The notes beneath the pieces were generated by a model. The model saw nothing but the letters and a program-made list of their open reading frames with translations, was not told the DNA's origin and ran no database searches. Position numbers and translations under genes: made by a program. Shown one piece after another: positions 704-38,144 of a stretch of DNA of 38,460 nt (position 1 is the stretch's first letter; every line of letters begins with the position of its first letter). This stretch comes from a virus (taxonomy: Duplodnaviria; Caudoviricetes): positions 1 to 38,460 of IMG/VR virus record IMGVR_UViG_3300029142_000015, one strand, 5' to 3'.

Positions 704-726
704 AGAGTTGTGGTTTTAGGAGGGTT

Positions 727-1138: not shown

Positions 1139-1168
1139 TTCAGTTGTGGTTAGGAGTAAGACGTCCCA

Positions 1169-1965: not shown

Positions 1966-3453
1966 TTGTTTGTTAGCGACTATGTACCGCGGGGACTCCC
2001 AGTAGTGCGTGAAGTGCAAACCGGTTATCGTACTAAAGCGGACTTGCTGGCGGAAACAGAAAACCAGTTTCGCATATGGTATGACGAATACGCGAAGCGA
2101 CCACGGCAAGCCGACGAAATACGTTTGCCGATGCCACACCCTCGACAGCGGACCATTATCTACTCGAAGAAACGCTTCAAGGTAATGGTCTGTGGTCGAC
2201 GTTTTGGTAAAACTACCGCAGCGTTGATTGCAGCAGTTCTCCGGGCGAATGCGAAGCCGAATCAAATGATTTACTACGTCGCTCCTACCTACAGACAAGC
2301 TAAGCAGATCGCCTGGGGAATGCTTTTGGATTTCGTTGGAAACGCATACAAGCGCAAAAACGAGCAGGAACTTGTAATTGAGTTCTCCAATGGTTCGAAA
2401 ATTTATTTAAAGGGGGCCGAAAACCCCGACGCTCTACGTGGAGCTTACGTACACCTGGCGATTTTGGACGAATACCAAGACCAACGCCCCGTTGTGTGGG
2501 AACAGATCATACAGCCTATGATCGCCGACACGAAAGGTGACGTTTGGTTTATTGGTACGCCAAAGGGGTTTAATCATTTCCACCAATTATGGAAAGATGC
2601 CTCCGAAGGCAAATTGGGCGCCGACTGGGCCGCCTACCGTTTGACCACATACGACAACCCGCACATACCACGCGAAGAAATTGAACGGGCGCGCAAAACA
2701 ACGGACGAACGTTCGTTTAATCAGGAATATCTCGCGCATTTTGTTCAGTTTTCCGGACTGGTTTACCCACAATTCCAACGGGTAAAGCACGTCCAATTCT
2801 TCGATCATAAGAAAATCGAGGGCATATATTTAACTGGTATTGATTGCGGAGCGGATCACCCAACCGCTGGTATTTTTATTAAAGTAACTTCGGGCGGCAC
2901 GGTTTACGTATGGAACGAGCACTACCAAGCTGACGCCGCTGTAGCCGAACACGCAGAATGCTTGCTGCAGCTAAAAGGTCCTGTACATGTACGTAAATGG
3001 TATATTGACCCTAGCGCCAAACAGTTTGCGAAAGATTTACGCACCCACGGGGTACCAACGGTTCCCGCGGTGAACGATCGACGTTACGGGATTCAAGAAC
3101 TTCGCTCGCTGTTAAAAGCGGGTAAATTAATTGTTCATCCAAAGTGCCAAAATCTTATTTACGAATTTGAGCATCACATCTACAAAGACTCAAAGAAGAA
3201 AGGCAAAGAACGCGGAGACGTAGAAAAGGAGGTAAAGAAAGTAGACGATGACGCGTTGGACGCGCTTCGTTACGCTATTGCGTCGCACTTCAAAGGGCGT
3301 ACTTACGAAGACTTAGACTTAGCTCCACCTATGGACGTGCCTATCGGTGTGAAAACTGCATTTGACAAAGACACCCTCCGCCGCTATACTGTGAGTACGG
3401 GAGGAAACGTACCACAGTATGTTGCTCCAGAATTTCAACACTTAGACCAATGA
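1966..3453 (+). CDS. terL: Terminase large subunit
   Basis: Walker A GRRFGKT, Walker B AILDE, GTP coupling motif, RNase H-like GID...DDDALDALRY; TTG start uncertain. Confidence 0.95.
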   Translation: MFVSDYVPRGLPVVREVQTGYRTKADLLAETENQFRIWYDEYAKRPRQADEIRLPMPHPRQRTIIYSKKRFKVMVCGRRFGKTTAALIAAVLRANAKPNQMIYYVAPTYRQAKQIAWGMLLDFVGNAYKRKNEQELVIEFSNGSKIYLKGAENPDALRGAYVHLAILDEYQDQRPVVWEQIIQPMIADTKGDVWFIGTPKGFNHFHQLWKDASEGKLGADWAAYRLTTYDNPHIPREEIERARKTTDERSFNQEYLAHFVQFSGLVYPQFQRVKHVQFFDHKKIEGIYLTGIDCGADHPTAGIFIKVTSGGTVYVWNEHYQADAAVAEHAECLLQLKGPVHVRKWYIDPSAKQFAKDLRTHGVPTVPAVNDRRYGIQELRSLLKAGKLIVHPKCQNLIYEFEHHIYKDSKKKGKERGDVEKEVKKVDDDALDALRYAIASHFKGRTYEDLDLAPPMDVPIGVKTAFDKDTLRRYTVSTGGNVPQYVAPEFQHLDQ

Positions 3454-3755
3454 TCACTCTAGAACAACTCAAGCCGGTACCACCTTATATTGTCGTAGAG
3501 CCGGTAGATCCAAACGAAGGATCTAATATTGTAATTGCTGCAGAATACCAAGACGCCCCCCAGCGTGCTGTAGTGCGGGCCGTGTGGGACGACACTACGT
3601 TCTACAGCACCGAAACTCCGCAACTTTTGGTAGGGCCGGGCGACGAAGTGCTGCACGCAAAATACGGCGCTGTGGAAATTAATGATTCCGACTTCGCCTT
3701 GCTACATCACGATGACATTTACTGTATTGTCAAAAATGGCAGCGAAACCAAATAA
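3450..3755 (+). CDS. groES: GroES/Cpn10-like co-chaperonin
   Basis: LKP..YIVVEP...NIVI...AVVRAV...VGPGDEVLHAKYGAVEI...LLHHDDIYCIV follows the Cpn10 pattern; ATGA-coupled to TerL. Confidence 0.8.
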   Translation: MITLEQLKPVPPYIVVEPVDPNEGSNIVIAAEYQDAPQRAVVRAVWDDTTFYSTETPQLLVGPGDEVLHAKYGAVEINDSDFALLHHDDIYCIVKNGSETK

Positions 3756-4368: not shown

Positions 4369-4375
4369 AAAACAC

Positions 4376-4561
4376 GCCGGCGGACAAGGCTTTGGCCACG
4401 TAACCAATCGTGGATGGGTAGCGAGTGGCCGGCACTTAATAGGGGCGAACCGCAAATAATAGCGAGCGAATAGCGGTTACTTTTCGTTAGGGGTTAAGGG
4501 ATAACGACCCAGGCTCGCAAAACTATCGAGTCCCACTTCTAGGCGAAAGTCTAGGGTGGGG
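4376..4561 (+). ncRNA. Structured non-coding RNA module, family unknown
   Basis: Consecutive stems: 4376-81/4428-33, 4396-4400/4409-13, 4448-53/4473-78, 4484-89/4502-07, 4514-17/4527-30, and a GAAA-capped stem 4532-44/4549-60 with G-U pairs. Confidence 0.5.
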
Positions 4562-4567
4562 GATACC

Positions 4568-4838
4568 CAGTAGGTGGCGGAATGGGTGCTGCTCCAAAGG
4601 CAGGCCCTCAGGTAGACGCATGCGGTGGCGCCATCCCGCGGAAATGTACTTCAGGATCACAGTAGAGAGGAGACGCGACGGCGCGGTAACTGTGTTCACC
4701 AGCTGATGACCTCTTGCCCCGTTCGGGCAACGTAACATGGTAAACGAAGGCCCTCTGCATTATACGTGACAGAGTCGAAAGGCTCGGGAATTTATCCGCA
4801 AAACGGCGCGTACGGGTTCGAATCCCGTCCTACTAACC
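4568..4838 (+). ncRNA. Large tRNA-like RNA with insertions
   Basis: Acceptor CAGTAGG/CCTACTA-A-CC; Leu-type D arm TGGCGGAAT...GGTAGACGC; T arm ACGGG-TTCGAAT-CCCGT; hairpin in the D loop and ~170 nt of extra structured sequence. Confidence 0.75.
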
Positions 4839-4906
4839 TAAAGACCGACGAGCCACCTCCACAGTAGTTTACCACAACTCTTGTTGGACTCATCGGCCTT
4901 TAGTGT
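4838..4906 (-). ncRNA. Candidate trans-acting hairpin sRNA
   Basis: 15-bp stem 4838-52/4889-4903 is fully paired only on the minus strand (two G-U); promoter immediately upstream; loop complementary to early-gene leaders. Confidence 0.65.
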
Positions 4907-4912
4907 GTCGGA

Positions 4913-4940
4913 ATTTTAGCTTTCTGCTGCGGAAAGTCAA
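4913..4940 (-). promoter_or_regulatory. Promoter for the hairpin sRNA
   Basis: TTGACT(4940-35)-16-TAAAAT(4918-13); predicted start near 4906. Confidence 0.55.
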
Positions 4941-4948
4941 GAGTCAAG

Positions 4949-4988
4949 CCCATTATGGTTTGCTTTTTACCACCCATTATGGTATAAT
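4949..4988 (+). promoter_or_regulatory. Portal-operon promoter with two CCCATTATGGT boxes
   Basis: TTGCTT(4960-65)-17-TATAAT(4983-88) with extended TG; identical 11-mers at 4949-59 and 4973-83. Confidence 0.75.
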
Positions 4989-5008: not shown

Positions 5009-6889
5009 GTGCACTACTTCACGTGCACAATAGCTAAAAAAAAGAAAAATCAGACCCCAAGTGAGGAACTTCAAGCTTTAGCTCTTGCTAGAGTAAATGA
5101 CGAAGTTTCTTTTGTGCGTACACTTATGGCTCGACCTCGCCAAAACTGGCTAAGGTGGTACCGTTTGGTTCGCCTTTTCCGGCTTGAGGGCGTGAACAGC
5201 TTCAATCGTGTTTTCGTACCGCGTGCATGGGAGCAGATCGAAAAGATCGCCCCTAGAATGACGGCGCACGATCCAACTTTTGAAGTCATACCTGGTCGCC
5301 CGAAGTCAGTAGCACTAGTGGATTACGTTTCACAGTGGCTTTTGTATATTTGGGAAGAACGCTTGCTGCGTAAAGACGTACGCGAGTGGACCAAGGGCGC
5401 TTTAACGTACGGAACTGGATGGGTGAAGCTTTACATGGACGTGCAAACGAAGAAAGAGCTTGTAGAGCGCATGGAAATTGATGAAGAAACCGGTGAACGT
5501 ATTATGGTAGAGGAGGAAGTGGAAATCAGCGCTCTGCCAGCGTTTGGATATGTAGATATTTTCGATATTGACGTAGATCCTCGGTATTCTTGCATCGAAG
5601 ATGCCCCTGGGATTATCCATTCTTTGGAAAGGCAGTCTTTTGGGGACTTGCTGTCCGATGAAAAGGCACTCAATTACTTCAACCTGGATAAAATCAAAGC
5701 AATGGCGTCCGGCGCAACAGACGTTGCAGCATTCGATAATTCCAAAGAGAAGAAACTCGAGGCTCGATCTATTTCAACACATGCTGGTACTTCTAGTGGA
5801 ACTAAAGATGGACAAATAGACCTTACTAATTTGACGGTTCGCGAATATTGGGGGCGTTTCTCTCCAACAGATTCAGTTGATGACGTTGAAGAATACGTGA
5901 TTACAACAGTGAATGACTCTATTGTAATCCGTTTGGAGCGCAATCCTTACGCTACACCTGACAACCAGGACGGTATCCGTCCATTTGAGCAAATGGTTGA
6001 TCATGACAACCCTGGTGAACTTTACGGGACTGGTGAAGTAGAGCCAACAGAAACGCTGCAAATTGCGTTGAATAAAATTAGAAACCACAGGCTTGACAAT
6101 GTCGACCTGGTATTAAACCGAATGTGGGTTTATGACCGGAACGGTGGTGTTAATCCAAAACATTTGCAATCCTTCCCTGGTAATGTAATTGCCGCGGACG
6201 ATGTAAATGCGATTCAACCGCTGGTGACGCCAGACGTAACTTCAAGTAGTTATGCTGAGGAAGATCGTATTGAACGAGACTTCCAACGTGCAACCGGTAA
6301 CATCGACTCTACTGATCAAGGTGGAGCAGGTGGATTTATTAATACCGCTACGGGTGAAAAGATTCGTGATAAAGATCGCAGTGCGCGATTCCAGCTAAAG
6401 ATCGAAAACCTAGAAGATGCCCTAGCTCGTGTAGCACAAAAGATGCTTCGCATGCTACATGCAACCGAGGGTCAGAGTTTTGTGATTCGTCGCCGAAATA
6501 AAAATGGTGAGACGAAGTTTACAGAAATTCAAAAAGAGCTCTTGCGTGAAGCTGTAGAAGGTATGGCGATCCGTGTAAAAGCTGGATCTACGATTTCCGA
6601 TGATTATGAAGAGCGACGTAATGAAGCTCTCGCTCAATGGAATCTAGCGTCCGTTGCACACGAAAAAGGTTTGATTGATCAAAATCAGCTGAAGGATGTA
6701 TTTGAGAATGTAATGCGAATTGCGTTCAAAAATCAAAACCTCACAAAGAGTGAAGGAGGTGGTTTGCAGAGCCTATTGGCTCCACCGCCACCAGCACAGC
6801 CAGCAGTCGCCGCGCCGAGTGGCACAGCAGCACAGATCAATCCACAAACTTTAACACCCAATGGTTTACCACCTGATTTAGCGATTTAA
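5009..6889 (+). CDS. Portal protein (podovirus/P22-like)
   Basis: 626 aa; GALTYGTGWVK, IRPF...PGELYGTG, NKIRNHRLDN motifs; position after TerL; start uncertain (GTG 5009 or ATA 5030). Confidence 0.85.
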   Translation: MHYFTCTIAKKKKNQTPSEELQALALARVNDEVSFVRTLMARPRQNWLRWYRLVRLFRLEGVNSFNRVFVPRAWEQIEKIAPRMTAHDPTFEVIPGRPKSVALVDYVSQWLLYIWEERLLRKDVREWTKGALTYGTGWVKLYMDVQTKKELVERMEIDEETGERIMVEEEVEISALPAFGYVDIFDIDVDPRYSCIEDAPGIIHSLERQSFGDLLSDEKALNYFNLDKIKAMASGATDVAAFDNSKEKKLEARSISTHAGTSSGTKDGQIDLTNLTVREYWGRFSPTDSVDDVEEYVITTVNDSIVIRLERNPYATPDNQDGIRPFEQMVDHDNPGELYGTGEVEPTETLQIALNKIRNHRLDNVDLVLNRMWVYDRNGGVNPKHLQSFPGNVIAADDVNAIQPLVTPDVTSSSYAEEDRIERDFQRATGNIDSTDQGGAGGFINTATGEKIRDKDRSARFQLKIENLEDALARVAQKMLRMLHATEGQSFVIRRRNKNGETKFTEIQKELLREAVEGMAIRVKAGSTISDDYEERRNEALAQWNLASVAHEKGLIDQNQLKDVFENVMRIAFKNQNLTKSEGGGLQSLLAPPPPAQPAVAAPSGTAAQINPQTLTPNGLPPDLAI

Positions 6890-21968: not shown

Positions 21969-22026
21969 AAAAAAGCGTGTACCCGAACGCTAGACTTTCT
22001 CTAACACGCTGGGCAGCGCTTTTTTT
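21969..22026. terminator. Bidirectional terminator at the convergence of both arms
   Basis: AAAAAAGCG...CGCTTTTTTT enclosing an imperfect stem, between convergent genes. Confidence 0.6.
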
Positions 22027-22052
22027 AACGTTTGTGCGTATTTAATCGGAAT

Positions 22053-22172
22053 TTAGAATCTAAAAAGGGGATCGCTGGAATAGCGAGTAAAGATGTTGCC
22101 AATCACAAAGGTGAGTGAGCCTAACGTCAAAAACGGTAGTGCTAAAAGTAAATTTTTAGTGCGTGTTTTCAT
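22053..22172 (-). CDS. Small membrane protein (39 aa)
   Basis: MKTRTKNLLLALPFLTLGSLTFVIG...; this ATG is preferred over the track start. Confidence 0.45.
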   Translation of the reverse strand: MKTRTKNLLLALPFLTLGSLTFVIGNIFTRYSSDPLFRF

Positions 22173-22189
22173 TTTGAGGGGTTTAAGTG

Positions 22190-22423
22190 TTATTGGGGTG
22201 AAGTTACGTCCAGTAGGCCACACTGTAATATAGGAAGCCACCTTTTGATGTTTTCTCTGCGCTTCCACGCACGATAACGCCTTGCGTCACGTTCATCTGC
22301 CAGCATCTGGCACGTCTCACGAGAAACAGGCTCACTGCACCCTTGATTGCACGAAAACATTAACGTCATAGGGTCGCAGTCAGATCTTTGTCCACACTTT
22401 TTACAGAATACATCTAGACTCAT
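22190..22423 (-). CDS. Cys-rich (zinc-ribbon-like) protein
   Basis: CKKC...CNQGC. Confidence 0.55.
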   Translation of the reverse strand: MSLDVFCKKCGQRSDCDPMTLMFSCNQGCSEPVSRETCQMLADERDARRYRAWKRRENIKRWLPILQCGLLDVTSPQ

Positions 22424-22459
22424 AATAATTAATTGTTAGTGCCGTGGGCGGTTAAAGGT

Positions 22460-22843
22460 TTACTCCAGCTCGAGATCAACGTCAGGAATAATAGTTTGTG
22501 GCTTGAAGATCACACGGTAGTGGTATTCGTCCACATTGGCAGCGTCAAGTTGTTCCGCAAAGTAGGTCACGTTGTCCGAAAGTCCGAGGAAATGTTTTTT
22601 ATATTGATTTTCTGCGGTTTTGCATGTGACAGAAAGTCTCCCAGTACTATCATAATTGCCAAGCGAACATCGCCCAGTAAGCTCAAGAATGTACTCGCCA
22701 GTAATTCCGTTGTAAAAGACAATACGTCTGGTGATTTCAAATTGATCAGCTGCTTTTGAGAGGTTGCTGGATGCAATATCAGCGTCTGAACATCCTGTTA
22801 GGACGACAGCAAGTACCGAGAAAGTGAGAAGTAATTTTTTCAT
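22460..22843 (-). CDS. Phage lipoprotein of unknown function
   Basis: Signal peptide with lipobox LTGC; RRIVFYNGITG motif that I recognise from other phage lipoproteins. Confidence 0.8.
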   Translation of the reverse strand: MKKLLLTFSVLAVVLTGCSDADIASSNLSKAADQFEITRRIVFYNGITGEYILELTGRCSLGNYDSTGRLSVTCKTAENQYKKHFLGLSDNVTYFAEQLDAANVDEYHYRVIFKPQTIIPDVDLELE

Positions 22844-22879
22844 TCCTTATAAGTGTTAGGCCACAAAGGGCGAATTAAA

Positions 22880-23320
22880 TTAGTCTCCCCACCGATCATT
22901 TTGAATTTTCTCTGTGGGAAGTGGCCAAAGATCATTCTCCAGCAAATATTCAGCTAGGGCGGAGAATGCAGCAAGAGCTGTTTTGCCTGACGCTGAAAGA
23001 TCGCATCTTTTGAGCTGCCTATAGAGCGGATAATAATTCCCATTAAATGTTTCCATGTGAAGGGGGCAGTCCTCTCCGTCTAATCTCATATTCTTTGGCA
23101 TCACCTCGATCAACTCGGCAAGGGTGAGGGCTGGGATTTGATGCTCGTAGCAGCAGTAAGCTGGGTATTCTGTCCAGTTATATCCTGCTGTGTGCACACA
23201 CTCCCATTCGCCATCGCCTTCATTCACCCATTTGAAAAGCACCTCTAAATCTTTCGTCACCCCCTTCTCAAAGAGCGCTTTTGATAGCTGCAAGTCAGTT
23301 ACTAATGTTTCTAGGTTCAT
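22880..23320 (-). CDS. Hypothetical protein
   Basis: 146 aa; VTDLQLSKAL...PALTLAELIE. Confidence 0.7.
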   Translation of the reverse strand: MNLETLVTDLQLSKALFEKGVTKDLEVLFKWVNEGDGEWECVHTAGYNWTEYPAYCCYEHQIPALTLAELIEVMPKNMRLDGEDCPLHMETFNGNYYPLYRQLKRCDLSASGKTALAAFSALAEYLLENDLWPLPTEKIQNDRWGD

Positions 23321-23460
23321 TGCTTTTTAATGTTATCAAGATATTTAGCCAGCCCATGCTCTGAAATGTAGAGGCGTGCCTCGCGCTCTTCTTTGTAGGC
23401 TTGCCACATAGCATAGAGAAACATCGGTATCGGCTTAATGTAGTTATCAATCAGCTTCAT
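23317..23460 (-). CDS. Hypothetical 47-aa protein (not in ORF track)
   Basis: MKLIDNYIKP...NIKKQ; overlaps both neighbours. Confidence 0.5.
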   Translation of the reverse strand: MKLIDNYIKPIPMFLYAMWQAYKEEREARLYISEHGLAKYLDNIKKQ

Positions 23461-23770
23461 CTTTTTGGGGTAGTTTGGATTTGAGGAGTTCTCGTACTTT
23501 CTTCAATGCCTTGTTGAATCCTACATTTTGCGGTTCTGGCGTGTGAGTAATGCCCGAGAAACCAGCACGAGACATGTGGGATTCTGGTCTGGAGTGCGGA
23601 AGTTCCAAGCAAATTTCATTTATCACCTCCTCCCTCACATGCTGCTTTGTTTTATGTTCTATTTTGGCGATGAAGGCTTTGATCTGCCTGTCTTTGAAAT
23701 TCCGTGGCAAATCCCAGAAAAGCCATTCTGCATCAAACTCATCCTCCCACCAGTGTTTTTGATTAGTCAT
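23447..23770 (-). CDS. Hypothetical protein
   Basis: 107 aa in the operon. Confidence 0.65.
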   Translation of the reverse strand: MTNQKHWWEDEFDAEWLFWDLPRNFKDRQIKAFIAKIEHKTKQHVREEVINEICLELPHSRPESHMSRAGFSGITHTPEPQNVGFNKALKKVRELLKSKLPQKDEAD

Positions 23771-23782
23771 TCGGCTTAGTTG

Positions 23783-23953
23783 TTAAATAGTCCCTTTACC
23801 CTTCCAGCCTTGAATCTCCTCTCCGAACAAAACCTTTTCATTGTTATGGCCACAGAGAATACCATCCGTGTGTACTTCGTGAACCTTTTTCCAGAGGCCT
23901 TCGTGACAAATTTTTTCACCTGCCTCCACATCTTTCCAAAGTTTGTGCTTCAT
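23783..23953 (-). CDS. Hypothetical 56-aa protein (not in ORF track)
   Basis: MKHKLWKDVEAGEKICHEG...KGTI; ATGA coupling. Confidence 0.55.
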   Translation of the reverse strand: MKHKLWKDVEAGEKICHEGLWKKVHEVHTDGILCGHNNEKVLFGEEIQGWKGKGTI

Positions 23954-24102
23954 TGGTTCAGGATTAAAATATGCCTACACTTCTTACACACGGTTTCCGT
24001 GCGCCATTCCCCATCTGAAAAGCCTTCGGAGGGCTTTGTAGGCCTACCATCGGTGTAGTGGTTGTTTACACGGTGGTAGTCGTGTCTGATCTCACAAGTC
24101 AT
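23950..24102 (-). CDS. Hypothetical 50-aa protein with CxxC (not in ORF track)
   Basis: MTCEIRHDY...VCKKCRHILILNQ; ATGA overlaps at both ends. Confidence 0.6.
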   Translation of the reverse strand: MTCEIRHDYHRVNNHYTDGRPTKPSEGFSDGEWRTETVCKKCRHILILNQ

Positions 24103-24785
24103 CGCCCTTTAACGTTAGGATATAAGTCTGCAACCAAGTCGCTCTGGTAAAGTTCTTTCGTGTCAACGTTCATCATGCTCAACACGCCTTCCCAGCCTCC
24201 ACCGGTATCCATAAGCCATACATGCTCGTGATTGATCGGTTGCGGTGAAATGGAGTGAACCGACGTGTGGCCTATGTAAATTTCGTCCCACTTACGCCAA
24301 GGTTGAACTGTTTTCTTGTTCACAGCGCGCATAGCCAAAGCACGGTCCCACATTAAGTAGCGTGGCTTGTTCTTTTCTAACGAAATACTGGGGTCCACGC
24401 CTCCGTGTACAAACAAACGATTGCGCGAGTCCAAGTAACGATATACACCCTTGGACCAAAATTCGTCACGATGCTTAGCGATTAAGTCACCCCGACGTAC
24501 GTAGGCGTCAATTGTAGCTTGCCCGCCTTGTTCCGTCCAAATAAGTGGCCGTTGGCCGTGGGTCATCCAGTCTATGCACCATTGGTCATGATTTCCAATA
24601 AGTAGCGTTAAGTTTTTAATGTGTATCAGCTCTTCAACACATTCCGGTGTTTCGGGCCACCCGTCAACCACGTCACCTAGGGCAATCAGGTGGTCGTGTT
24701 CGTAATCGAAATCCGCACGTTCCAAGCACTGCTTAAGCGCCCGGTGTGCTCCGTGAATGTCGCCGATTACGAAGGTTCGCGGCAT
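24099..24785 (-). CDS. Calcineurin-like metallophosphoesterase (lambda NinI/PPP-like)
   Basis: GDIHG, GDVVD, GNHD, HGG, GHT, DTG motifs. Confidence 0.9.
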   Translation of the reverse strand: MPRTFVIGDIHGAHRALKQCLERADFDYEHDHLIALGDVVDGWPETPECVEELIHIKNLTLLIGNHDQWCIDWMTHGQRPLIWTEQGGQATIDAYVRRGDLIAKHRDEFWSKGVYRYLDSRNRLFVHGGVDPSISLEKNKPRYLMWDRALAMRAVNKKTVQPWRKWDEIYIGHTSVHSISPQPINHEHVWLMDTGGGWEGVLSMMNVDTKELYQSDLVADLYPNVKGR

Positions 24786-24797
24786 GAGTGGTGGAGG

Positions 24798-24947
24798 TTA
24801 ACGAATATGATATGGCCCTAGGCCAGCCGAATGCTCTACGGCGCCCGGCCCGAACACAATACGACGACTTGGAGCACATGAGTATTTCCGTTGCTCCAAA
24901 CGCTCAATACGTTCTTCCAACCCCTTAATTCTTTGCTCTATATTCAT
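24798..24947 (-). CDS. Hypothetical 49-aa coiled-coil protein (not in ORF track)
   Basis: MNIEQRIKGLEERIERLEQR...; fills the gap exactly. Confidence 0.55.
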   Translation of the reverse strand: MNIEQRIKGLEERIERLEQRKYSCAPSRRIVFGPGAVEHSAGLGPYHIR

Positions 24948-24950
24948 AGC

Positions 24951-25295
24951 TTAATCTAATTTCAATCGCCCCCAAAGTCCTTGCACTTGCGCAACGGTGA
25001 CCTGGATTGGTTCCGTATCTTCTTCTGGCCCCGCCCACGTGGACTCGCCTTTTATGTAGGCGTCCGCTAGGTCACGTATAATTCGCAATGACTCAAAATC
25101 ACCTTCTGTGATAAATGGAAAATAGCCCTCGCAAGCCAAACGTAAAGCGCGGACCGCAAGATCGTATTGGCGAACTGCTTCTGCGCGTGACTCATACATG
25201 TCCGGGTGATCATGCATTAACTTACGGATTTCCTTGGCTAATGCCAACGCTTCCGCTGGAGTTTCTAAAGTGCTGGATTGGTTTACGCTGTCCAT
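24951..25295 (-). CDS. Hypothetical protein
   Basis: 114 aa in the operon. Confidence 0.65.
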   Translation of the reverse strand: MDSVNQSSTLETPAEALALAKEIRKLMHDHPDMYESRAEAVRQYDLAVRALRLACEGYFPFITEGDFESLRIIRDLADAYIKGESTWAGPEEDTEPIQVTVAQVQGLWGRLKLD

Positions 25296-25528
25296 TTTGG
25301 ATTGGGGTTAGAAGGTAGCATGCGCTGTATGCGCTTATGTGTTATGGCACGTTGCTCGTTTGCAGTATGCAGTGTAGCCGGATATGGTTCGTGCCCATCG
25401 ATCACAACTAAGTGTTCGTGTGGCTGCGCATGTTTATTTATGTGTTGTATAATGGCCAGAGACTCTGTTAGCTTGTCTAAGTCCGGCTCTGCGTCGAAAA
25501 AGTCGTCTGTCGGAAAATTTATTGGCAT
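25283..25528 (-). CDS. Hypothetical protein
   Basis: 81 aa, overlapping neighbours. Confidence 0.6.
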   Translation of the reverse strand: MPINFPTDDFFDAEPDLDKLTESLAIIQHINKHAQPHEHLVVIDGHEPYPATLHTANEQRAITHKRIQRMLPSNPNPKWTA

Positions 25529-25827
25529 ACGTTAGAATTTAATTGATTTATTTTAGTTCTAAGGCGCTTAATTTCCTCCAGCTGAACTCTAGGCCGTTTT
25601 GGCATCACATCGGCTGCAAACATCGTTAAAGGCTCAATGCAGGGCTTTACGCATTTTGCGTCCAAAACTGCGCCTGTTTTTACAAGATATGCTTCTACCG
25701 ATAAAAAAGGAAGCGTTTGTATTACTTCATTGCGCATCCAGGGCACGCCTGGAGTACATCGGCACTTTGCCGCGTGCCCAACAAAGCGCACTTGCTTAGC
25801 GAGTCCAGGTCGAGTGGTGTTTGACAT
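25519..25827 (-). CDS. Hypothetical protein
   Basis: 102 aa, four Cys; TTTACCACAACT leader. Confidence 0.6.
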   Translation of the reverse strand: MSNTTRPGLAKQVRFVGHAAKCRCTPGVPWMRNEVIQTLPFLSVEAYLVKTGAVLDAKCVKPCIEPLTMFAADVMPKRPRVQLEEIKRLRTKINQLNSNVCQ

Positions 25828-25876
25828 TGTAAGTTGTGGTAAATCAACTACACCCTAACTTACGTGTGAAACAAAG

Positions 25877-26371
25877 TCAAGTGGTTCCATAGTTAATGGA
25901 CCTACCATATACGGCCAAGCAGAACGCATCTGTCAAGCCGTCATGGTCCTTGGTGCACCGCTCGCTTTTACGCCAGTCTACGCTGGGCTGCATTTTCTTT
26001 GCGTATGCAATTGAGGCTACCTTAGTGTCCGTGTAAGTCGTTCCTTTGAAAAGGTGGCGCTGCCAATCCTTGGGGGACGCAATGAAGCGTGGTAGCTGCA
26101 AAGCGGCGCAAATACCTTCCATCGCTCCGAGACAGCCGGCCAACGACAACACCGAGCGCTTACTGATTTGTGGCGTAACAAATACTTTTTCCAGGGTCAC
26201 CAACACAGGGCGGAATTGTTCCAATAGCGCAGCCACACGTGGGTAATCGTACTCGGGGCGCTTTGATCCAAAAACAGGCATCACCTCTTTGTGCACCACC
26301 GAGTTACTATCATCAACTACGACTACGCCACCTTGCTTACCATTGTCGATTCCTGCGTAGTAATTAGACAT
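25877..26371 (-). CDS. RuvC-like Holliday junction resolvase
   Basis: AGIDNGKQGG, TLE, P..WQ, DGLTDAFCLA.YG. Confidence 0.85.
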   Translation of the reverse strand: MSNYYAGIDNGKQGGVVVVDDSNSVVHKEVMPVFGSKRPEYDYPRVAALLEQFRPVLVTLEKVFVTPQISKRSVLSLAGCLGAMEGICAALQLPRFIASPKDWQRHLFKGTTYTDTKVASIAYAKKMQPSVDWRKSERCTKDHDGLTDAFCLAVYGRSINYGTT

Positions 26372-26879
26372 CCTTCAACATTTCTAATACCTCTTCAAGC
26401 ACAGCGACTTGTGCGTGCTTGAAGAACCCAGTGCGAGTGTGGTCTTCACTGGGGCCAGATCCGTGGATACCTTCTTTTGCAAGAGCGATCAGTGACTGTT
26501 CATCATACCCACGAATAATCAGCTCTCGACACGCTTTCGTCATCGCCCCTAATGCATCTAAAGTAGCGCGCAAGCGGCGTTTTTGCGCTGGAGTCGCGGC
26601 TGCGTCAAAGATATCTAATTCGTCACGCATATGCTTCCCAAGCGTACTGTTGGCTTTGATGCGATCCATTGTGTCGAAGAAATTCTTTGCAGCCACAGAG
26701 CTCGCGACGTTAAATTGGCAAGTTCGCCCCGGCTTGGGCTCAACGAGTTCGATGGCTTCATCCTTTCGGTCTGCATCGTCAATTGACATTTGTTGCTCGA
26801 CGATAAGTGAAGCTTGGGCATCGGCAATGTCCTGGAGGATTTGCACCGCCTCTACATCTAGGAAGTGTTGTATGTTCAT
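26364..26879 (-). CDS. Hypothetical protein
   Basis: 171 aa, coupled to neighbours. Confidence 0.7.
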   Translation of the reverse strand: MNIQHFLDVEAVQILQDIADAQASLIVEQQMSIDDADRKDEAIELVEPKPGRTCQFNVASSVAAKNFFDTMDRIKANSTLGKHMRDELDIFDAAATPAQKRRLRATLDALGAMTKACRELIIRGYDEQSLIALAKEGIHGSGPSEDHTRTGFFKHAQVAVLEEVLEMLKDV

Positions 26880-27544
26880 TTTAAAAGTGGGTCAGATATT
26901 AATTCGAAAGCGGCTTCGTGATCATACACGATTGCCTTGAACTTAGCACGCACGCCCGCAGCCCGCTCTACAAAACCTGCCCGGTAACGCGCGATTTGGC
27001 TAAATATTTTTATCGCTGCTTTTGTTTTTAGTGGCACTATACCAGGTGGGTGTTTTTTAATGGTAGCCGGCAAGTCTGGCTTGAAGTCGCCTACCTCCAC
27101 GGTGCTATCGGGCAACACGCTTAGGTCGTCGGCAACACCGTTCCAGTCTTCACCCCAAACCGGCACCTCTGTGGCCAACAACGTAGGGTCCACGTTGTGC
27201 AAGTGTTGCTGTACTTTTTGGTGTTGGTATTCTTTCCAGCAGCCGTATTTGGCTTGTTTGGCGTACTGCACTTTTGGGTGGGATTCCAGGCGCCTTACCA
27301 CGAAGTCCGAAGCTTCGTACACGTCACCGTTACGAGACTCTTTAGGTCGCTCTGGTATACCGTTTTCAAATGCGTCGGTTAAGTGGTGACACAAAAGCCT
27401 TATGTGCTCTGGTATGGACCATCGCCCAGAAATGCGTGCATCGAAAATAGACGCGTAAGTCGTGAACTCATGCGTACCCACGTAGTCGGCACCACGTGGG
27501 CGCTTTAACATACGAATGATTTGTTCGGTATTTTTAAACGACAT
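26876..27544 (-). CDS. PD-(D/E)XK nuclease
   Basis: ATEVPV, G.AD, VGDFKP, QIARY RecB-like motifs. Confidence 0.7.
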   Translation of the reverse strand: MSFKNTEQIIRMLKRPRGADYVGTHEFTTYASIFDARISGRWSIPEHIRLLCHHLTDAFENGIPERPKESRNGDVYEASDFVVRRLESHPKVQYAKQAKYGCWKEYQHQKVQQHLHNVDPTLLATEVPVWGEDWNGVADDLSVLPDSTVEVGDFKPDLPATIKKHPPGIVPLKTKAAIKIFSQIARYRAGFVERAAGVRAKFKAIVYDHEAAFELISDPLLK

Positions 27545-27656
27545 CTACTTGTGCGTCATCGATTAAAAGTTCTTCGGCTAAGAAAGTTTCTAAAGCACGC
27601 GCTACTTCACGCGGTGCAAGTTCACCTTCGGTAAATTGAATGCTAAGGTTAATCAT
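27534..27656 (-). CDS. Acidic 40-aa protein (not in ORF track)
   Basis: MINLSIQFTEGEL...AQVDVV; ATGA coupling upstream, overlap downstream. Confidence 0.5.
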   Translation of the reverse strand: MINLSIQFTEGELAPREVARALETFLAEELLIDDAQVDVV

Positions 27657-27862
27657 AGCACGCCAGCGTTAGGACGTGTGTTGAGCACACGCTGCAGCAA
27701 ATTGCGGCCTTCCATTTCTTTTAGTTGATTTGAAAGGCTACGGCGCTTTGCACGGGCTATGGACACAGAAGTTTCCAAACTGCGTCGGTGCGCGTTTATC
27801 TTCAAAGCCGCCACTAAAAGCTCCGGCTTGTTGAGCTTCTTTAATTCACGATCCTTGTACAT
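27653..27862 (-). CDS. Basic coiled-coil hypothetical protein
   Basis: Likely start MYKDRELKK at 27862, behind a C-rich leader. Confidence 0.6.
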   Translation of the reverse strand: MYKDRELKKLNKPELLVAALKINAHRRSLETSVSIARAKRRSLSNQLKEMEGRNLLQRVLNTRPNAGVL

Positions 27863-27881
27863 GGGGAGTGGGGTGTGGTAA

Positions 27882-28001
27882 TTAAAAGGGGAGGTCGTCG
27901 TAATAGGCAGGGTCATCGGCTGGAGCCGGTGGCTGCTTCAGTCCAGTATTAGGGATCAATCGATCACCTTCACGACGAATATACTGAAATGCGTTTACTT
28001 T
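27882..28001 (-). other. -1 frame extension of the SSB ending in DDLPF
   Basis: From A-AAG at 28001-27998 the -1 frame reads KVNAFQYIRREGDRLIPNTGLKQPPAPADDPAYYDDLPF-stop. Confidence 0.65.
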
Positions 28002-28522
28002 GCGGCCCCTGCGCCCCCGTAAGCTTCATCAACCACGAGTGGTCCAAGCTTTTCGAGAATAGGAGCAGTGTCGCCTGTGAACGGCATTACTGAGTCAATA
28101 GCGTCTCCTAGGGATCCGTCTTTCTTCTCCCAGTTCGTCACTTGCACCGTACAGATTTGTCCGAGTGCTTTTGCCATGTCTGGCTTTGGAACCATTGGGT
28201 CTACACCAACAGCCTTCAAGATTTGACCACTATTAGTCATCTTGGTTTGACCGGCGTGCATGTAACAACTTCGGATGTTACACTTCTTGGTAAGCACTTT
28301 CTTACCAGCTTCGAACTCAGTTCCGTCCAACGCCTTGAGCGGTCCGCCCGTTACGTCTTGAGCTAGTTCAAATTTAAATACTGCAGCGGGCTTAACCTGA
28401 CCTGCGTATTCAGTGGTGCCTTCTTCGATCGCAATGATACGAGCGGCATATAGGCCTTCAGCAAGAGCAACGTACTCGCTAGAGCCGCCTTGCAAAGCCT
28501 CTGTGTTGTCGATTTCCAACAT
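27995..28522 (-). CDS. Single-stranded DNA-binding protein (DUF669/OB-fold-like)
   Basis: ALAEGLYAARIIAIE, FKFE, LGQICTVQV pattern; replication context. Confidence 0.7.
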   Translation of the reverse strand: MLEIDNTEALQGGSSEYVALAEGLYAARIIAIEEGTTEYAGQVKPAAVFKFELAQDVTGGPLKALDGTEFEAGKKVLTKKCNIRSCYMHAGQTKMTNSGQILKAVGVDPMVPKPDMAKALGQICTVQVTNWEKKDGSLGDAIDSVMPFTGDTAPILEKLGPLVVDEAYGGAGAAK

Positions 28523-28612
28523 ATGGAGTGGAGGTTTAAATTATACAGACGCGTGCATTACGAGTACAGACGATGAAGCGGAATTTCGTAACACACACGC
28601 CCACATAATTTC

Positions 28613-28927
28613 TTATGTAGAGCGTTGCTTATTCTGTAAATAGATTTTAAGGATCAAGGAGTACACCGCCAAATCACGTAGAGTGTCGGTGATCGCCTCA
28701 TCCTTAACTTGGGCGTCTGCTTTCAATAGGTTCGAAATGCGGCCCAGTTTGTCTGTCATCCGAACAACGATTCCCTGTTCTACAGAACAAAGTCCGATGT
28801 GGTCAACAATGCGGAAGTTACGAAAGGCATCTTCGAGACCAGCGTAATCCGCGTTTTTGCGCGAAGTTAAATCGAGCATCGCGTCGAGCTCTTGCTTAAA
28901 AGCAGTCTTATATTGTTTTTGATCCAT
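28613..28927 (-). CDS. DUF1599-like nucleotide-modification-associated protein
   Basis: KNADY, RMTDKL.RI.NL, DE.I.DTL.DLA.Y. Confidence 0.75.
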   Translation of the reverse strand: MDQKQYKTAFKQELDAMLDLTSRKNADYAGLEDAFRNFRIVDHIGLCSVEQGIVVRMTDKLGRISNLLKADAQVKDEAITDTLRDLAVYSLILKIYLQNKQRST

Positions 28928-29111
28928 TAGGGAGTGGTTTTAAATCTTTTTCGCGAAAATAGGTTCGCTTTTTACCAGCTATGTGTGAAGCGGATTCTGC
29001 AACCGCGTACATGTATTTACCTTCGGCTGTACACGCAAAAGACGCGACTGTTCCGACTTTACCATCAGGTAAGACAACGCGATCAAACGTTTTGAAACGT
29101 GGTTCAGGCAT
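28908..29111 (-). CDS. Small SH3/KOW-like protein
   Basis: Likely start MPEPRFKTFDRV at 29111; G.V...Y.V...F.E.DL. Confidence 0.6.
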   Translation of the reverse strand: MPEPRFKTFDRVVLPDGKVGTVASFACTAEGKYMYAVAESASHIAGKKRTYFREKDLKPLPNGSKTI

Positions 29112-29145
29112 AGCGTGGTAATTTGGAGTGGAGGGGAGGGCTAGA

Positions 29146-29307
29146 CTAATAGTCCATAGAGCGAACGCCGTGTGAACCGTCATAGCTTGGCGTGCGGTAC
29201 GGATCTTTATTGGCTTGAGCAAAGCCCCACAGAATAAGTACGATCAGAATGAAGATCGCCACGGCTGTTTGGGAATTGCCCTTTTTGGGGTCTTGCTGAT
29301 TAGTCAT
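29146..29307 (-). CDS. Single-pass membrane protein, 53 aa (not in ORF track)
   Basis: MTNQQDPKKGNSQTAVAIFILIVLILWGFAQ...SMDY. Confidence 0.6.
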   Translation of the reverse strand: MTNQQDPKKGNSQTAVAIFILIVLILWGFAQANKDPYRTPSYDGSHGVRSMDY

Positions 29308-29313
29308 GCTTCT

Positions 29314-29342
29314 ATCTTATAGGGTCTAAGCATATAAGTCAA
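29314..29342 (-). promoter_or_regulatory. Internal promoter giving a leaderless transcript
   Basis: TTGACT(29342-37)-17-TAAGAT(29319-14), 6 nt before ATG 29307. Confidence 0.6.
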
Positions 29343-29395
29343 TACTTTTTCTTTTAGGCGTACGGAAAGCACGAAAGTGCAAATTCGAGTCTGTA

Positions 29396-32223: not shown

Positions 32224-32225
32224 GG

Positions 32226-33011: not shown

Positions 33012-35304
33012 GGTTGTGGAGGTTAATAAATTTTGTGGTTTGGCATCCAGTGCACGATACTTGCAAGCCCCCATTCGACCGGTGGGAGACAAACGCGCTT
33101 GGATTAGAATCATCGTGCCCCGGGAAGGGACAACGTATCGGTGTGGTTTTTTGGTCGTCTTGTGGTAAAGACGAAATGTAAGAAGCTGCGTCGTGGGCTT
33201 GGCCACGAGCGTCGTACAAAGTAAAGTTCGGCATCGTTCTTTCACTAGAAGCTACTCGGCGTTGCAAAGGAGTGCCCGAACCACTTTTGGCCCGAGCTAA
33301 GCGTAAGTTTTCTTCTGCTTGTACTCTTTTCAAAAGTGCTTTGACCGGGAACAGGCGCCCTTCGTTCGTTTGAACGGTACAACCAGGTGCTCCGTAATAA
33401 GTGCGGGCTGCATCCTTACAAGCTGGGTCGCTACCAAAACGTTCGGTCATAGCTTGCATAAACAAGCGGAACTCCGCGCGATCGGTAAATTCATAGTCAC
33501 CATATAAGATGAGCCGAAAGCGGTCGTGCACCACACCATTCTTTTCTTTTTGGTGTGATTTCGTCGTGGCTAAAACATAAGAATACGGTTCGAATTCTTT
33601 AGCAACTTCCGCTAAAGTTGGCCCATCGTCAAAGTCCAAAATGATTAAAGCAGCTCGTTCGAAATTGTCCTGCTTACGCTTTCCATCTTTAAATACACAA
33701 GCGCTGTACAGGTATTCTCCGCGCAACACGGTCAAAAGCTCCGTCCGTCCGTTCACCTCCTGGAAACCTTCGCTTTGCGACGGATCTAAACCAGGGCGAT
33801 AGCTAAAGTAATCCTTTGGAGCTTCGGGCAGTGCGGCCACCGGTTCTTCGTCCAAAATACTATCATCGGCTGTTGCCAGTCTACAGGTATAGAAATCACG
33901 TTTCCGCACTTTGTGGTGCTCTACCACGAGACCCATGCTGCGAGCTTCAGGTGCTACTTCCGACATCATCAAGTCAAACACAGGCTCCTGGAAAGATCGC
34001 TTTGGCAAACCCCGGAATGTGGGCAGATCCATTAAGTCTAGCGCGCTTGCTCCTTTGATCCCCTTTTGCTGCAAAAACGAAATCACCTGATTCGTGTTCG
34101 AGTAAGCAGATTCGTCAAAGAAACGTTTAGCGGATTCAAATGAACGACGCACAATACCGTGTGCTTGTTTTAAGTCCGCAAGCGTAACTACGAAATTACG
34201 GTCCGCATGATTGAAAATAGCCAACAACGTCGCAACCCGTAAAGTTTTACGATCCAGGTCGCTTTGTAGCGCACACATTAAATCTTTGTGTTCACTTGCT
34301 GCAGTTTGATCACGATAAACTTGTAACGCACGGGCAGCACGTTCGCATTCGGCATCATACCAAGTGCGGGCTTCAGGCGTTAAAGTGATGATACGTTCTG
34401 AACCTGGTGTACCTGCGAACTGTTCATGCATCCACTCGGTCAGTTCTGTAATTTGAGCAGAAAATGCTTCAACATCGTCAACCGGAGGTGGGGTGACATT
34501 ACGCAATTGAACTGTTTCGTTTGACTCACGAATCAAGAAACCACGACGGCCAATTGATTTAAGTACAGCGCGCTTGATGTCTTCCTTTTGACGTGAGTCA
34601 GGATGAGCCAAAGTGAAGTATAAAGTAATGCCCATGCCTTTCGAGCCAGGTGTTGCTTGGCCACGATCCTTAATAGATTTAGCGGTGAGTTCGTCGTAAT
34701 CTACCAGCTCCAGCATTCTGTTGTAGAACGACTGCAAATACGCAGCACGCTTCATCAGCGTGAGCTTGTCGCCGTATTCGTCAACACGAATCGTAGGAGC
34801 ACCAAAAGAGAGCGAACCTAAATACGCTCGATCAAACGCAAAACCTTCATAAGACCCGTCGTCCGGGGTGATCATGGAGAGCTCACGTTTACGCGAGTTG
34901 TATTTAGTAATAAGTTTTTTACGTTGCTTTTCGTTCTTCTTTGCGTCGGCCGAGCCTTCGACCACCGGAAATTTCAAGTGCACATCTTTGACGTATTCAT
35001 CGTAACGGCTGCATTCTTGGTCGAACAAATAACCCATTGCCTGACGGAATGGTGAACCAAATACATGCTTTTGCATAAAGCGGTAAGCGGCGTTTTTACC
35101 CGTTCCGGTGGGTGCTTCTACCAGGGTGAGCGTAGAAGGGAATGTTGTTTTGTATGGCCCTTCCTGTACGCGGATACGCCAGTAGTTCACCCAGGTGGAA
35201 ATTAGCGATAGCGCTTGGAGCTCCACCATTGCTGTAGAAGCGGTGGAAGCTCCGGCTACCTGCGACGCGTATTCAACAAGTTGTGTGAAACGATCTTTAT
35301 TCAC
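33004..35304 (-). CDS. Helicase-primase fusion (DUF3987-like ATPase + AEP primase + Zn finger)
   Basis: APTGTGKN and IRVDE; IILDFDD, TTKSH, RFRLIL, D.ACKD.AR; C-terminal CPFPGHDD.NPS...CTGC. Confidence 0.75.
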   Translation of the reverse strand: MNKDRFTQLVEYASQVAGASTASTAMVELQALSLISTWVNYWRIRVQEGPYKTTFPSTLTLVEAPTGTGKNAAYRFMQKHVFGSPFRQAMGYLFDQECSRYDEYVKDVHLKFPVVEGSADAKKNEKQRKKLITKYNSRKRELSMITPDDGSYEGFAFDRAYLGSLSFGAPTIRVDEYGDKLTLMKRAAYLQSFYNRMLELVDYDELTAKSIKDRGQATPGSKGMGITLYFTLAHPDSRQKEDIKRAVLKSIGRRGFLIRESNETVQLRNVTPPPVDDVEAFSAQITELTEWMHEQFAGTPGSERIITLTPEARTWYDAECERAARALQVYRDQTAASEHKDLMCALQSDLDRKTLRVATLLAIFNHADRNFVVTLADLKQAHGIVRRSFESAKRFFDESAYSNTNQVISFLQQKGIKGASALDLMDLPTFRGLPKRSFQEPVFDLMMSEVAPEARSMGLVVEHHKVRKRDFYTCRLATADDSILDEEPVAALPEAPKDYFSYRPGLDPSQSEGFQEVNGRTELLTVLRGEYLYSACVFKDGKRKQDNFERAALIILDFDDGPTLAEVAKEFEPYSYVLATTKSHQKEKNGVVHDRFRLILYGDYEFTDRAEFRLFMQAMTERFGSDPACKDAARTYYGAPGCTVQTNEGRLFPVKALLKRVQAEENLRLARAKSGSGTPLQRRVASSERTMPNFTLYDARGQAHDAASYISSLPQDDQKTTPIRCPFPGHDDSNPSAFVSHRSNGGLQVSCTGCQTTKFINLHNHD

Positions 35305-35965
35305 TGTCGAGATTGCTTAACAATTCATCGATAGCGCCAGCCATTTTGGGTGCGGTAACACCCTGGAAGGTGAGTTGCGCCTGGAGCTCACGCCCGTAAG
35401 CGGTAAGCTTTCCTTCAACGTCCACCACTTTGTACTTGCGGCGTAGGCGAATGTTTTCTGGAACGTCCATTGCGGCGTTCATGATATTTTTTTGACTAGC
35501 GTTTGTGTCGCAGTCGGTATGTCGTTGTTCGGTAGACATAGGTGTGGGGGTTAATTGTTTTCTAATAAAAGCAAAAAGGGAGTACATGTACTCTGGACCG
35601 GTGAGTTTCTTAGCATTGGAAAACAAATCGGTATCCGTAATAGTGTCGTTGAAGGCAACGTGCACTTCATTTTCAGTTGGCTGGAAGTGCACGTTACAGC
35701 CGAAATATCGCTTTAAACAAGCGATAAGAGCGTTAATATAGCGGGAAGGGTAACTATCAAAATCCACGTCAACATCGCGGAGCTTCGCTGGTAGGCGTAA
35801 GCCTGGAGGAAGGTGTAGCAGCTTCAAGGAGCTGCGACCGGCGGCCGCATTTTCAAAACCTTCACACCACACAAATGGTGCGTCGCTACTGGCTTCGGCC
35901 AACAAGTTGATTCTCCCAGTTAAGTCCGTGCACAAAGCACCAATTTCTACGTCTGATTTATTCAT
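35297..35965 (-). CDS. Hypothetical protein
   Basis: 222 aa, coupled to neighbours. Confidence 0.7.
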   Translation of the reverse strand: MNKSDVEIGALCTDLTGRINLLAEASSDAPFVWCEGFENAAAGRSSLKLLHLPPGLRLPAKLRDVDVDFDSYPSRYINALIACLKRYFGCNVHFQPTENEVHVAFNDTITDTDLFSNAKKLTGPEYMYSLFAFIRKQLTPTPMSTEQRHTDCDTNASQKNIMNAAMDVPENIRLRRKYKVVDVEGKLTAYGRELQAQLTFQGVTAPKMAGAIDELLSNLDSE

Positions 35966-36252
35966 TGTGGTAAGTATTGAGTTATGCGCTTGGCTAAGTC
36001 GCTCAAGCCGTCGGCTAAATTGGTGAGAGCGTCACCTTGTACAGCACGCTCTACGAGTCGGTTTTCCATACGTTGGCCGTCGCGTTTGGCGGCCAACACT
36101 TCGGTCTGTACATCTACGAGCAGTTCCAAGGTTTGTTCTAGTTCCTCGGTTCCACCAGTGCCGTCGAGCACCGAACCAACCAAGCGGGCAGCTTCACCCG
36201 CCCACTGGTTTATATTATTGTGCTTGTCGCAGATATAAGTCCCATTAATCAT
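35962..36252 (-). CDS. Hypothetical protein
   Basis: 96 aa, helical. Confidence 0.65.
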   Translation of the reverse strand: MINGTYICDKHNNINQWAGEAARLVGSVLDGTGGTEELEQTLELLVDVQTEVLAAKRDGQRMENRLVERAVQGDALTNLADGLSDLAKRITQYLPQ

Positions 36253-37846: not shown

Positions 37847-37852
37847 ACTGTT

Positions 37853-38080: not shown

Positions 38081-38115
38081 ACTATATGTTGTGGTATGGG
38101 GGAGTCGGTAAACAC

Positions 38116-38144
38116 ATTATATAGTAAGTGTGGCAAAAATACAA
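38116..38144 (-). promoter_or_regulatory. Early-operon promoter
   Basis: TTGTAT(38144-39)-17-TATAAT(38121-16). Confidence 0.65.

What the first reader, a model, noticed from the sequence alone, without database searches (positions are those of the whole stretch)
4838..4940. Hairpin sRNA whose loop is antisense to the leaders of about ten early genes and displays GGAGGU
Seen: the stem 4838-52/4889-4903 has two A/C mismatches on the + strand that become G-U pairs on the - strand. A TTGACT-16-TAAAAT promoter would start a - transcript near 4906. Its loop reads AGAGUUGUGGUAAACUACUGUGGAGGU. Complementary words sit just before start codons of - strand genes: ACCACAACTCT (gene at 703, 11 nt), ACCACAACT (1138), TTTACCACAACT (25827, 12 nt), ACCTCCACA (33011), ACCTCCAC (24785 and 28522), TTACCACAA (35965), TACCACAAC (38080), TTACCACA (27862). 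The 29111 leader has CCTCCAC-6-TTACCAC, the same order and spacing as the loop. I saw no comparable matches before the structural genes. Inference A: a multi-target sRNA, divergent from the portal promoter, shuts off early translation. Inference B: it is an adaptor, pairing one arm with an SD-less leader and its GGAGGU with the 16S anti-SD. Caveat: part of the loop can form a short CAAC/GUUG hairpin.
Basis: partly seen in the sequence, partly recalled or inferred. Interest (0 to 1): 0.9.

Follow-up and report, generated by a model that had tools for sequence, protein, structure and literature searches.

The report
Phage RNA hairpin mirroring early-gene leaders
An uncultured phage whose genes lack the usual ribosome-binding signal carries a small hairpin whose loop is the exact complement of short tags in front of about ten of its early genes, so it likely makes a small RNA that would turn those genes down together, although no transcript, relative with the same hairpin or effect has been seen.

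Summary
Observation confirmed. 4838-4903 is a 17-bp stem, continuous only on the minus strand (three G-U), behind a TTGACT-16-TAAAAT promoter. Its loop matches 10 of 36 minus-strand leaders by 8-12 nt but 1 of 20 plus-strand leaders; 0 of 5000 loop shuffles reach this, and it is the best of 76,854 windows of the genome. The tag is rare in 151 genomes of the likely host phylum and in 355 leaders of distant relatives. The phage is Shine-Dalgarno-less, probably infecting Patescibacteria. Best reading (0.55): a trans-acting, two-seed antisense RNA that would cover the C/A-rich initiation region of early messages, as GcvB does. The adaptor idea is unlikely (0.05): GGAGGU is itself the seed for four targets, and pairing reaches the start codon. 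Weak points: no RNA run, no relative with the hairpin (no covariation test), a partly self-paired loop. This scan has noted the same kind of anti-leader hairpin on other phages, one in an SD-less crAss-like phage; those notes are unchecked leads.

The parts
4838..4906 (-). predicted small RNA, about 70 nt; 5' end inferred near 4906, 3' end unknown (no U-tract terminator)
   Evidence: transcript not observed
4887..4903 (-). 5' arm of the 17-bp stem
4838..4854 (-). 3' arm of the stem; three G-U pairs on -, three A.C mismatches on +
4868..4881 (-). seed A, AGAGUUGUGGUAAA
4855..4863 (-). seed B, UGUGGAGGU (holds GGAGGU)
4913..4940 (-). sigma70-type promoter TTGACT-16-TAAAAT, one of 5 sites in the genome at 10 of 12 or better
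4960..4988 (+). divergent portal promoter TTGCTT-17-TATAAT
4950..4982 (.). two copies of CCATTATGG (4950, 4974) between the divergent promoters; possible shared operator (inference); third copy at 7625
704..714 (-). target, gene starting 703, 11 nt, -11..-1, seed A
1142..1150 (-). target, gene 1138 (first gene behind promoter 1196), 9 nt, seed A
24791..24798 (-). target, metallophosphoesterase gene 24785, 8 nt, -13..-6, seed B
25832..25843 (-). target, gene 25827, 12 nt, -16..-5, seed A
27874..27881 (-). target, gene 27862, 8 nt, -19..-12, seed A
28528..28535 (-). target, gene 28522 (first gene behind promoter 28568; tag at the inferred 5' end of the message), 8 nt, seed B
29115..29134 (-). 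double target, gene 29111: 7 nt + 6 + 7 nt in the loop's own order and spacing
33015..33023 (-). target, gene 33011, 9 nt, -12..-4, seed B
35965..35973 (-). target, gene 35965, 9 nt, -8..+1, seed A
38088..38096 (-). target, gene 38080 (first gene behind promoter 38144), 9 nt, seed A
6864..6872 (+). the one match before a plus-strand gene (6889), 9 nt, -25..-17

Best explanation
The hairpin likely encodes a trans-acting small RNA of about 70 nt, predicted to be made from the minus-strand promoter at 4940, whose loop is complementary to the leaders of about ten early genes and would pair with them to block translation initiation. Shown in the sequence: the stem, the promoter-like site, two loop seeds and their complements at -23 to +1 of the start codons. 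Inferred: the phage's messages start without a Shine-Dalgarno signal and rely on an open C/A-rich stretch before AUG; a 7-12 bp duplex there would hide that stretch, as GcvB hides ACA enhancers. The targets are mainly the independently started genes, including the first gene behind each of the three leadered early promoters, so translational coupling would carry the block down each operon. The A/U-rich late leaders would escape. The promoter is back to back with the portal promoter around a repeated 9-mer, so the RNA may rise with late expression.
For: Match statistics. Strand: -30.8 vs -21.1 kcal/mol, z -6.6 vs -4.9; 3 G-U on -, 3 A.C on +. Promoter -10 ends 10 nt from the stem; 5 such sites in 76,920 strand positions. 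Targets: 8 of 13 leaders with a gap of 10 nt or more against 3 of 23 coupled ones, counting the 7+7 site at 29111 as a hit (Fisher p 0.006). First genes behind promoters 38144, 28568 and 1196 all carry a tag; the fourth (29342) is leaderless. Not a general host signal: AACCWCMAC-N1-8-ATG occurs 5 times in 38 kb, all at real starts, but 0-16 times per genome in 151 genomes of the phylum of a Peribacteria MAG, about as often as the reversed control; 1 of 355 leaders of distant relatives matches by 8 nt. Net energies with opening costs are -5 to -10 kcal/mol for ten targets; 1 of 100 shuffled loops reaches the mean. Precedent: GcvB (PMC3879156, abstract), c4 (PMC12197685, passages).
Against: One genome only: no covariation. 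Nine distant relatives (sharing only virion genes) show no hairpin-borne anti-leader window, and the 50%-identity relative L053 has a minus-strand hairpin at the same place with a C/A-rich loop instead. No intrinsic terminator follows the stem. The loop is partly self-paired (4-6 kcal/mol to open), the thermodynamic test is much weaker than the exact-match test (count at -6 or better: 6 observed, up to 7 in shuffles), and the plus-strand fold leaves CCUCC and UACCAC open. The motif used was drawn from this phage after the fact, and the control relatives are more AT-rich. Three starts (27862, 29111, 33011) are not the longest ORF start. The direction of the effect and its timing are pure inference.
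Confidence: 0.55

Rival explanations
1. The hairpin works on the plus strand, in the trailer of the non-coding RNA island, as a decoy that copies the leader tag and titrates a protein (or RNA) that binds those leaders.
For: The plus strand also folds better than shuffles (z -4.9), exposes CCUCC and UACCAC, and lies directly behind a tRNA-like 3' end on the strand transcribed from promoters at 1208 and 3362. AgvB is a phage precedent for target mimicry (PMC12197685, passages).
Against: Three A.C mismatches and no G-U in the outer stem on +; a promoter points into the stem from the other side; identities of 11-12 nt that run past the shared core fit base pairing better than a protein site; no candidate RNA-binding protein was identified among the genes scanned.
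Confidence: 0.13
2. The RNA is real and pairs with the leaders but acts on message stability or processing, or raises output, rather than blocking initiation.
For: The 28522 tag sits at the inferred 5' end of its message; some sites lie at -23 to -12.
Against: Most sites lie within -16 to +1, where pairing normally blocks the 30S subunit (established knowledge); target leaders are already open (opening cost mostly under 2.5 kcal/mol), so there is no structure to relieve.
Confidence: 0.12
3. The leader tags are simply this phage's C-rich version of an SD-less initiation signal (or a protein site), and the hairpin is an unrelated terminator or stabiliser whose loop resembles them by chance or old duplication.
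For: Relatives without the hairpin have TAACC followed by A/C before ATG; long G-U-rich hairpins occur elsewhere in this phage (28538-28611); the 38080 tag overlaps what resembles an NrdR box (consensus recalled, not from a call).
Against: The loop beats every real leader window as a match to the other leaders (47 vs 39) and is reached by at most 8 of 4000 leader-trained Markov strings; both tag classes sit side by side in one loop.
Confidence: 0.15
4. Adaptor: one arm pairs with an SD-less leader while GGAGGU pairs with the 16S anti-SD and delivers the ribosome.
For: GGAGGU is cheap to open (1.8 kcal/mol); leaders lack SD words (1 of 56); CCUCC lies at the SD position (-12..-8) in three leaders.
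Against: Four targets use the GGAGGU arm itself; seed A duplexes reach -1 or +1; late genes also lack SD and need no adaptor; the anti-SD was detected in only 48% of Parcubacteria 16S genes (PMC9297842, passages); the host's own 16S end could not be read (one search found nothing).
Confidence: 0.05

Closest known systems
GcvB sRNA of enteric bacteria silencing ACA translation enhancers (PMC3879156, abstract read)
   Same: G/U-rich seed, many targets, C/A-rich (ACA-containing) sites upstream of the start codon
   Different: GcvB is a chromosomal, Hfq-dependent RNA (Hfq dependence recalled) acting beside an SD; here the seeds sit in one hairpin loop, the targets are the phage's own SD-less messages, and nothing is shown by experiment
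c4 antisense RNA of phages P1/P7 (PMC12197685, passages read; Rfam C4)
   Same: about 70-80 nt, phage-encoded, trans-acting, complementary segments in loops, aimed at the initiation region of a phage message
   Different: c4 has one target (ant mRNA) and serves immunity; no Rfam match here; about ten targets; one loop with two seeds
Start-associated sequences (SAS) of cluster K mycobacteriophages (PMC3203893, passages read)
   Same: phage-specific asymmetric tag just before start codons of non-structural, mostly independently started genes, rare in the host
   Different: SAS is a 13-bp consensus holding AGGAG; here two shorter C/A-rich tags without SD, and the complementary copy lies in a promoter-fronted hairpin loop
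Anti-leader hairpins noted earlier in this scan (e.g. e1-7966910, e1-6051898; unchecked AI notes)
   Same: hairpin loop complementary to a shared leader tag of the phage's own genes
   Different: most of those target SD-containing leaders and rest on conservation; this one has SD-less leaders, a loop that reads GGAGGU, and no relatives

Membership tests
Rfam C4 / c4 antisense RNA | match to the Rfam covariance model | tested here: not met
   only tRNA at gathering score in the window; nothing at 4838-4903 down to E 5
Rfam C4 / c4 antisense RNA | targets an antirepressor message | tested here: inconclusive
   no antirepressor among 58 ORFs by PHROGs or 24 by Pfam, but most targets have no family
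GcvB | homology to GcvB (Rfam) | tested here: not met
GcvB | G/U-rich seed complementary to C/A-rich leader sites of many messages | tested here: met
   (sequence complementarity only)
GcvB | Hfq dependence | not tested
   host not identified to species
trans-encoded base-pairing sRNA | own promoter and stable fold outside coding sequence | tested here: met
   consensus promoter and fold; not proof of function
trans-encoded base-pairing sRNA | discrete transcript | not testable with these tools
   no RNA holder listed
trans-encoded base-pairing sRNA | intrinsic terminator at the 3' end | tested here: not met
   no terminator-like site called there
trans-encoded base-pairing sRNA | seed conserved or covarying with targets in relatives | tested here: inconclusive
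   no relative with the element reachable
trans-encoded base-pairing sRNA | pairing-dependent change in target expression | not testable with these tools
   needs reporters or toeprints
SAS of cluster K | 13-bp consensus containing AGGAG | tested here: not met
   1 of 56 leaders has any GGAG/GAGG/AGGA word at -20..-4
SAS of cluster K | tag restricted to non-structural, independently started genes and rare in the host | tested here: met
   (host phylum inferred)

The most novel reading that the evidence does not exclude
The RNA is a Shine-Dalgarno supplied in trans: it docks on SD-less early leaders with one arm and hands the ribosome a GGAGGU with the other, or, more modestly, it both silences the phage's CCUCC-tagged leaders and sequesters the host 16S tail. 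Either would be a new way of steering translation initiation, in a host group that has largely given up the SD system.
Probability: 0.06. Interest if true: 0.93.

Novelty: new variant of a known kind. Interest (0 to 1): 0.55.

Why it matters
If true, a phage would switch off a whole early programme with one 70-nt RNA and no protein repressor, in a host that starts translation without SD pairing. The loop would then read out which leader bases matter for SD-independent initiation in Patescibacteria, an open question with few handles, and SAS-type tags, left unexplained in 2011, would gain a candidate partner. I found no paper describing a phage RNA aimed at many of its own leaders (searches; the library lacks most subscription papers). 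The interest is tempered because the case rests on one genome.

Tried and rejected
Expression: no RNA holder listed; laying four DNA runs showed no variant in the hairpin. Relatives: portal, terminase and capsid searches of viral and metagenome contigs gave only a second assembly of this phage (100% identical) and relatives at 66% identity or less; none in genome contigs. The closest relatives (portal 59-64%, contigs of 36-39 kb) are in a collection whose DNA could not be fetched. The loop pattern scan gave 49 hits, 48 of them unrelated and without the enclosing stem. DNA search of 9 related records found nothing. The tRNA-like 3' end pattern found only this phage. The 80 terminase loci (79 at 33-42% identity) were only blasted with the intergenic DNA, not scanned for anti-leader windows. 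A host 16S 3' end could not be found in five candidate MAGs. The profile search machine was busy twice, so no deep protein search for the host was made. Unrestricted duplex energies discriminated poorly (count at -12 or better: 15 of 300 shuffles reach it), so exact matches and helices with opening costs were used. Rejected: DNA operator reading of the tags (fixed distance to ATG, several inside coupled junctions); the 31331 site (net -0.8 kcal/mol); a known RNA family; a peptide gene over the hairpin (no ORF of 45 aa). The G-U rule for strand was only eyeballed: it agrees with the local sense strand for most stems of 15 bp or more, not for shorter ones.

Full report
Setting. The window is a 38.5-kb tailed-phage record: terminase 1966, tRNA-Met 4174, portal 5009, capsid 8465 and lysin on the plus strand; GroEL, primase, RNA ligase, polynucleotide kinase, RuvC-like and many unnamed genes on the minus strand at 22,000-38,100 and 250-1140. 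No integrase was found among the 58 ORFs scanned. Its leaders are G-poor (9-11% G against 24% genome-wide) and only 1 of 56 has an SD-like word at -20..-4. The tRNA core is matched exactly in Chloroflexota and Patescibacteria genomes, among a few others (120 loci); of these, most Patescibacteria loci (Peregrini-, Peri-, Gracilibacteria) have SD-less leaders like the phage's, the Chloroflexota mostly do not. A Patescibacteria host is therefore likely but inferred.

The element. 4838-4854 pairs with 4887-4903. On the minus strand the stem is 17 continuous pairs with three G-U; on the plus strand these are three A.C mismatches. Energies are -30.8 (z -6.6) and -21.1 kcal/mol (z -4.9). A TTGACT-16-TAAAAT site at 4940-4913 would start a transcript near 4906, three bases before the stem; promoter-like sites are not enriched overall (7 found, 9.1 expected), but only 5 sites in the genome reach 10 of 12, so one landing here is unlikely by chance. 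It is back to back with the portal promoter (4960), with CCATTATGG at 4950 and 4974. No terminator follows the stem. Rfam has nothing for it.

The matches. I scored the longest exact match of the loop (4854-4887) to each -25..+3 window. Ten of 36 minus-strand leaders reach 8 nt, six reach 9 nt; 1 of 20 plus-strand leaders does. No shuffle of loop (2 x 5000) or leaders (2 x 1000) reached the 8-nt count. To correct for the loop having been picked by eye, every 34-nt window of both strands was scored, leaving out a leader's match to itself: the loop is first of 76,854 (47; next 39), and first again with starts chosen by a fixed rule (44, 9 of 34). Markov strings trained on these very leaders reach its score in 0, 1 and 8 of 4000. 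The loop has two seeds: A (4868-4881) for 703, 1138, 25827, 27862, 35965, 38080; B (4855-4863, with GGAGGU) for 24785, 28522, 33011; 29111 takes both in register. Sites lie at -23 to +1, most starting at -11 to -16. They favour independently started genes (8 of 13 vs 3 of 23, 29111 counted as a hit) and include the first gene behind each of three leadered early promoters. With opening costs, ten leaders give -5 to -10 kcal/mol and 31331 drops out; 1 of 100 shuffled loops reaches the mean, but the count at -6 or better (6) is reached by a shuffle (max 7).

Is the tag only a host signal? Relatives share a looser TAACC + A/C pattern, so the tags look like a C-rich form of the normal SD-less initiation region. 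But 1 of 355 distinct leaders of 17 related loci matches the loop by 8 nt (these are more AT-rich), and a 9-mer consensus before ATG occurs 5 times in the phage against 0-16 times per 0.5-2.1 Mb in 151 genomes of the likely host phylum, about the level of the reversed control (motif chosen after the fact, hits not restricted to true starts).

Relatives. None with the element could be read. Only a second assembly of the same phage carries it. Nine distant records, sharing virion genes only, have no anti-leader window in a hairpin. L053 (portal about 50%, terminase 55%) has an 18-bp minus-strand hairpin at the same place, but its loop is C/A-rich, the opposite sense; it holds no early genes, so this stays unexplained and counts mildly against. 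No RNA run holds the stretch, which says nothing either way.

Mechanism. The simplest account is repression by a loop-displayed antisense RNA: 7-12 bp helices are about what a closed loop can form (established knowledge), the sites cover the stretch that an initiating 30S must hold single-stranded, and GcvB gives the precedent of a G/U-rich seed masking ACA enhancers (PMC3879156, abstract). The adaptor reading fails on geometry and on those four targets, and the anti-SD is missing from about half of Parcubacteria 16S genes (PMC9297842, passages). A plus-strand decoy remains possible because that fold exposes both cores. Timing (late shut-off versus damping in a carrier state) is not settled by the sequence.

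Comparison and novelty. It works like GcvB or c4 (PMC12197685, one part and passages read) but is a member of neither. The tags behave like the SAS of cluster K phages, whose authors left open whether an RNA or a protein binds them (PMC3203893, passages; supplements not read). Four literature searches found no description of a phage RNA aimed at many of its own leaders, and none on Patescibacteria with Shine-Dalgarno and translation initiation together. This scan's earlier notes list the same kind of arrangement on other phages (82 findings hold the search words; one in an SD-less crAss-like phage); I did not test those, and took from them only the pointers to c4 and SAS. Verdict: real, well beyond chance within this genome, a new variant of a known kind; 0.55 for antisense repression; interest 0.55.

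Noticed in passing
window 4375-4432 (+): A 60-70-nt structured motif with an almost invariant core and a closing stem that differs from phage to phage; also in tRNA clusters of six Streptomyces phage records, L414 and L416 (between tRNA-Trp and tRNA-Met); unannotated, no Rfam hit. Possibly an undescribed tRNA-cluster RNA or ribozyme.
   Followed up: partly
window 4569-4838 (+): tRNA-like ends (acceptor stem, D-arm start, perfect T-arm) enclosing about 200 nt of extra hairpins; missed by ARAGORN and Rfam; unique in viral contigs. It abuts the hairpin of this finding.
   Followed up: partly
window 5009-5040; L053-L057, L065, L095, L096, L100: The portal has no ATG near its homologous start (ATA at 5037 or GTG at 5009); several relatives start with TTG, and their leaders hold a G-rich word, often in a hairpin, unlike the SD-less rest.
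   Followed up: no
window 28538-28611 (-): 26-bp hairpin with seven G-U pairs that overlaps the promoter at 28568 and ends at the 28522 leader.
   Followed up: no
window 29146-29342 (-): Small membrane-type gene that looks leaderless: -10 box ends 29314, ATG at 29307.
   Followed up: no
window 38080-38125 (-); L053 1640-1690: Tandem palindromes resembling NrdR boxes (consensus recalled, from no call) over an early promoter here and before the portal promoter of L053.
   Followed up: no
L053 1545-1596 (-): 18-bp hairpin with three G-U on the minus strand, at the same place as this finding's hairpin but with a C/A-rich loop.
   Followed up: partly
window 3450-3755 (+) and 36245-37846 (-): GroES and GroEL are both encoded, but far apart and on opposite strands.
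   Followed up: no
window 27534-27656 (-): A 40-codon ORF coupled on both sides fills the apparent gap before gene 27544.
   Followed up: no
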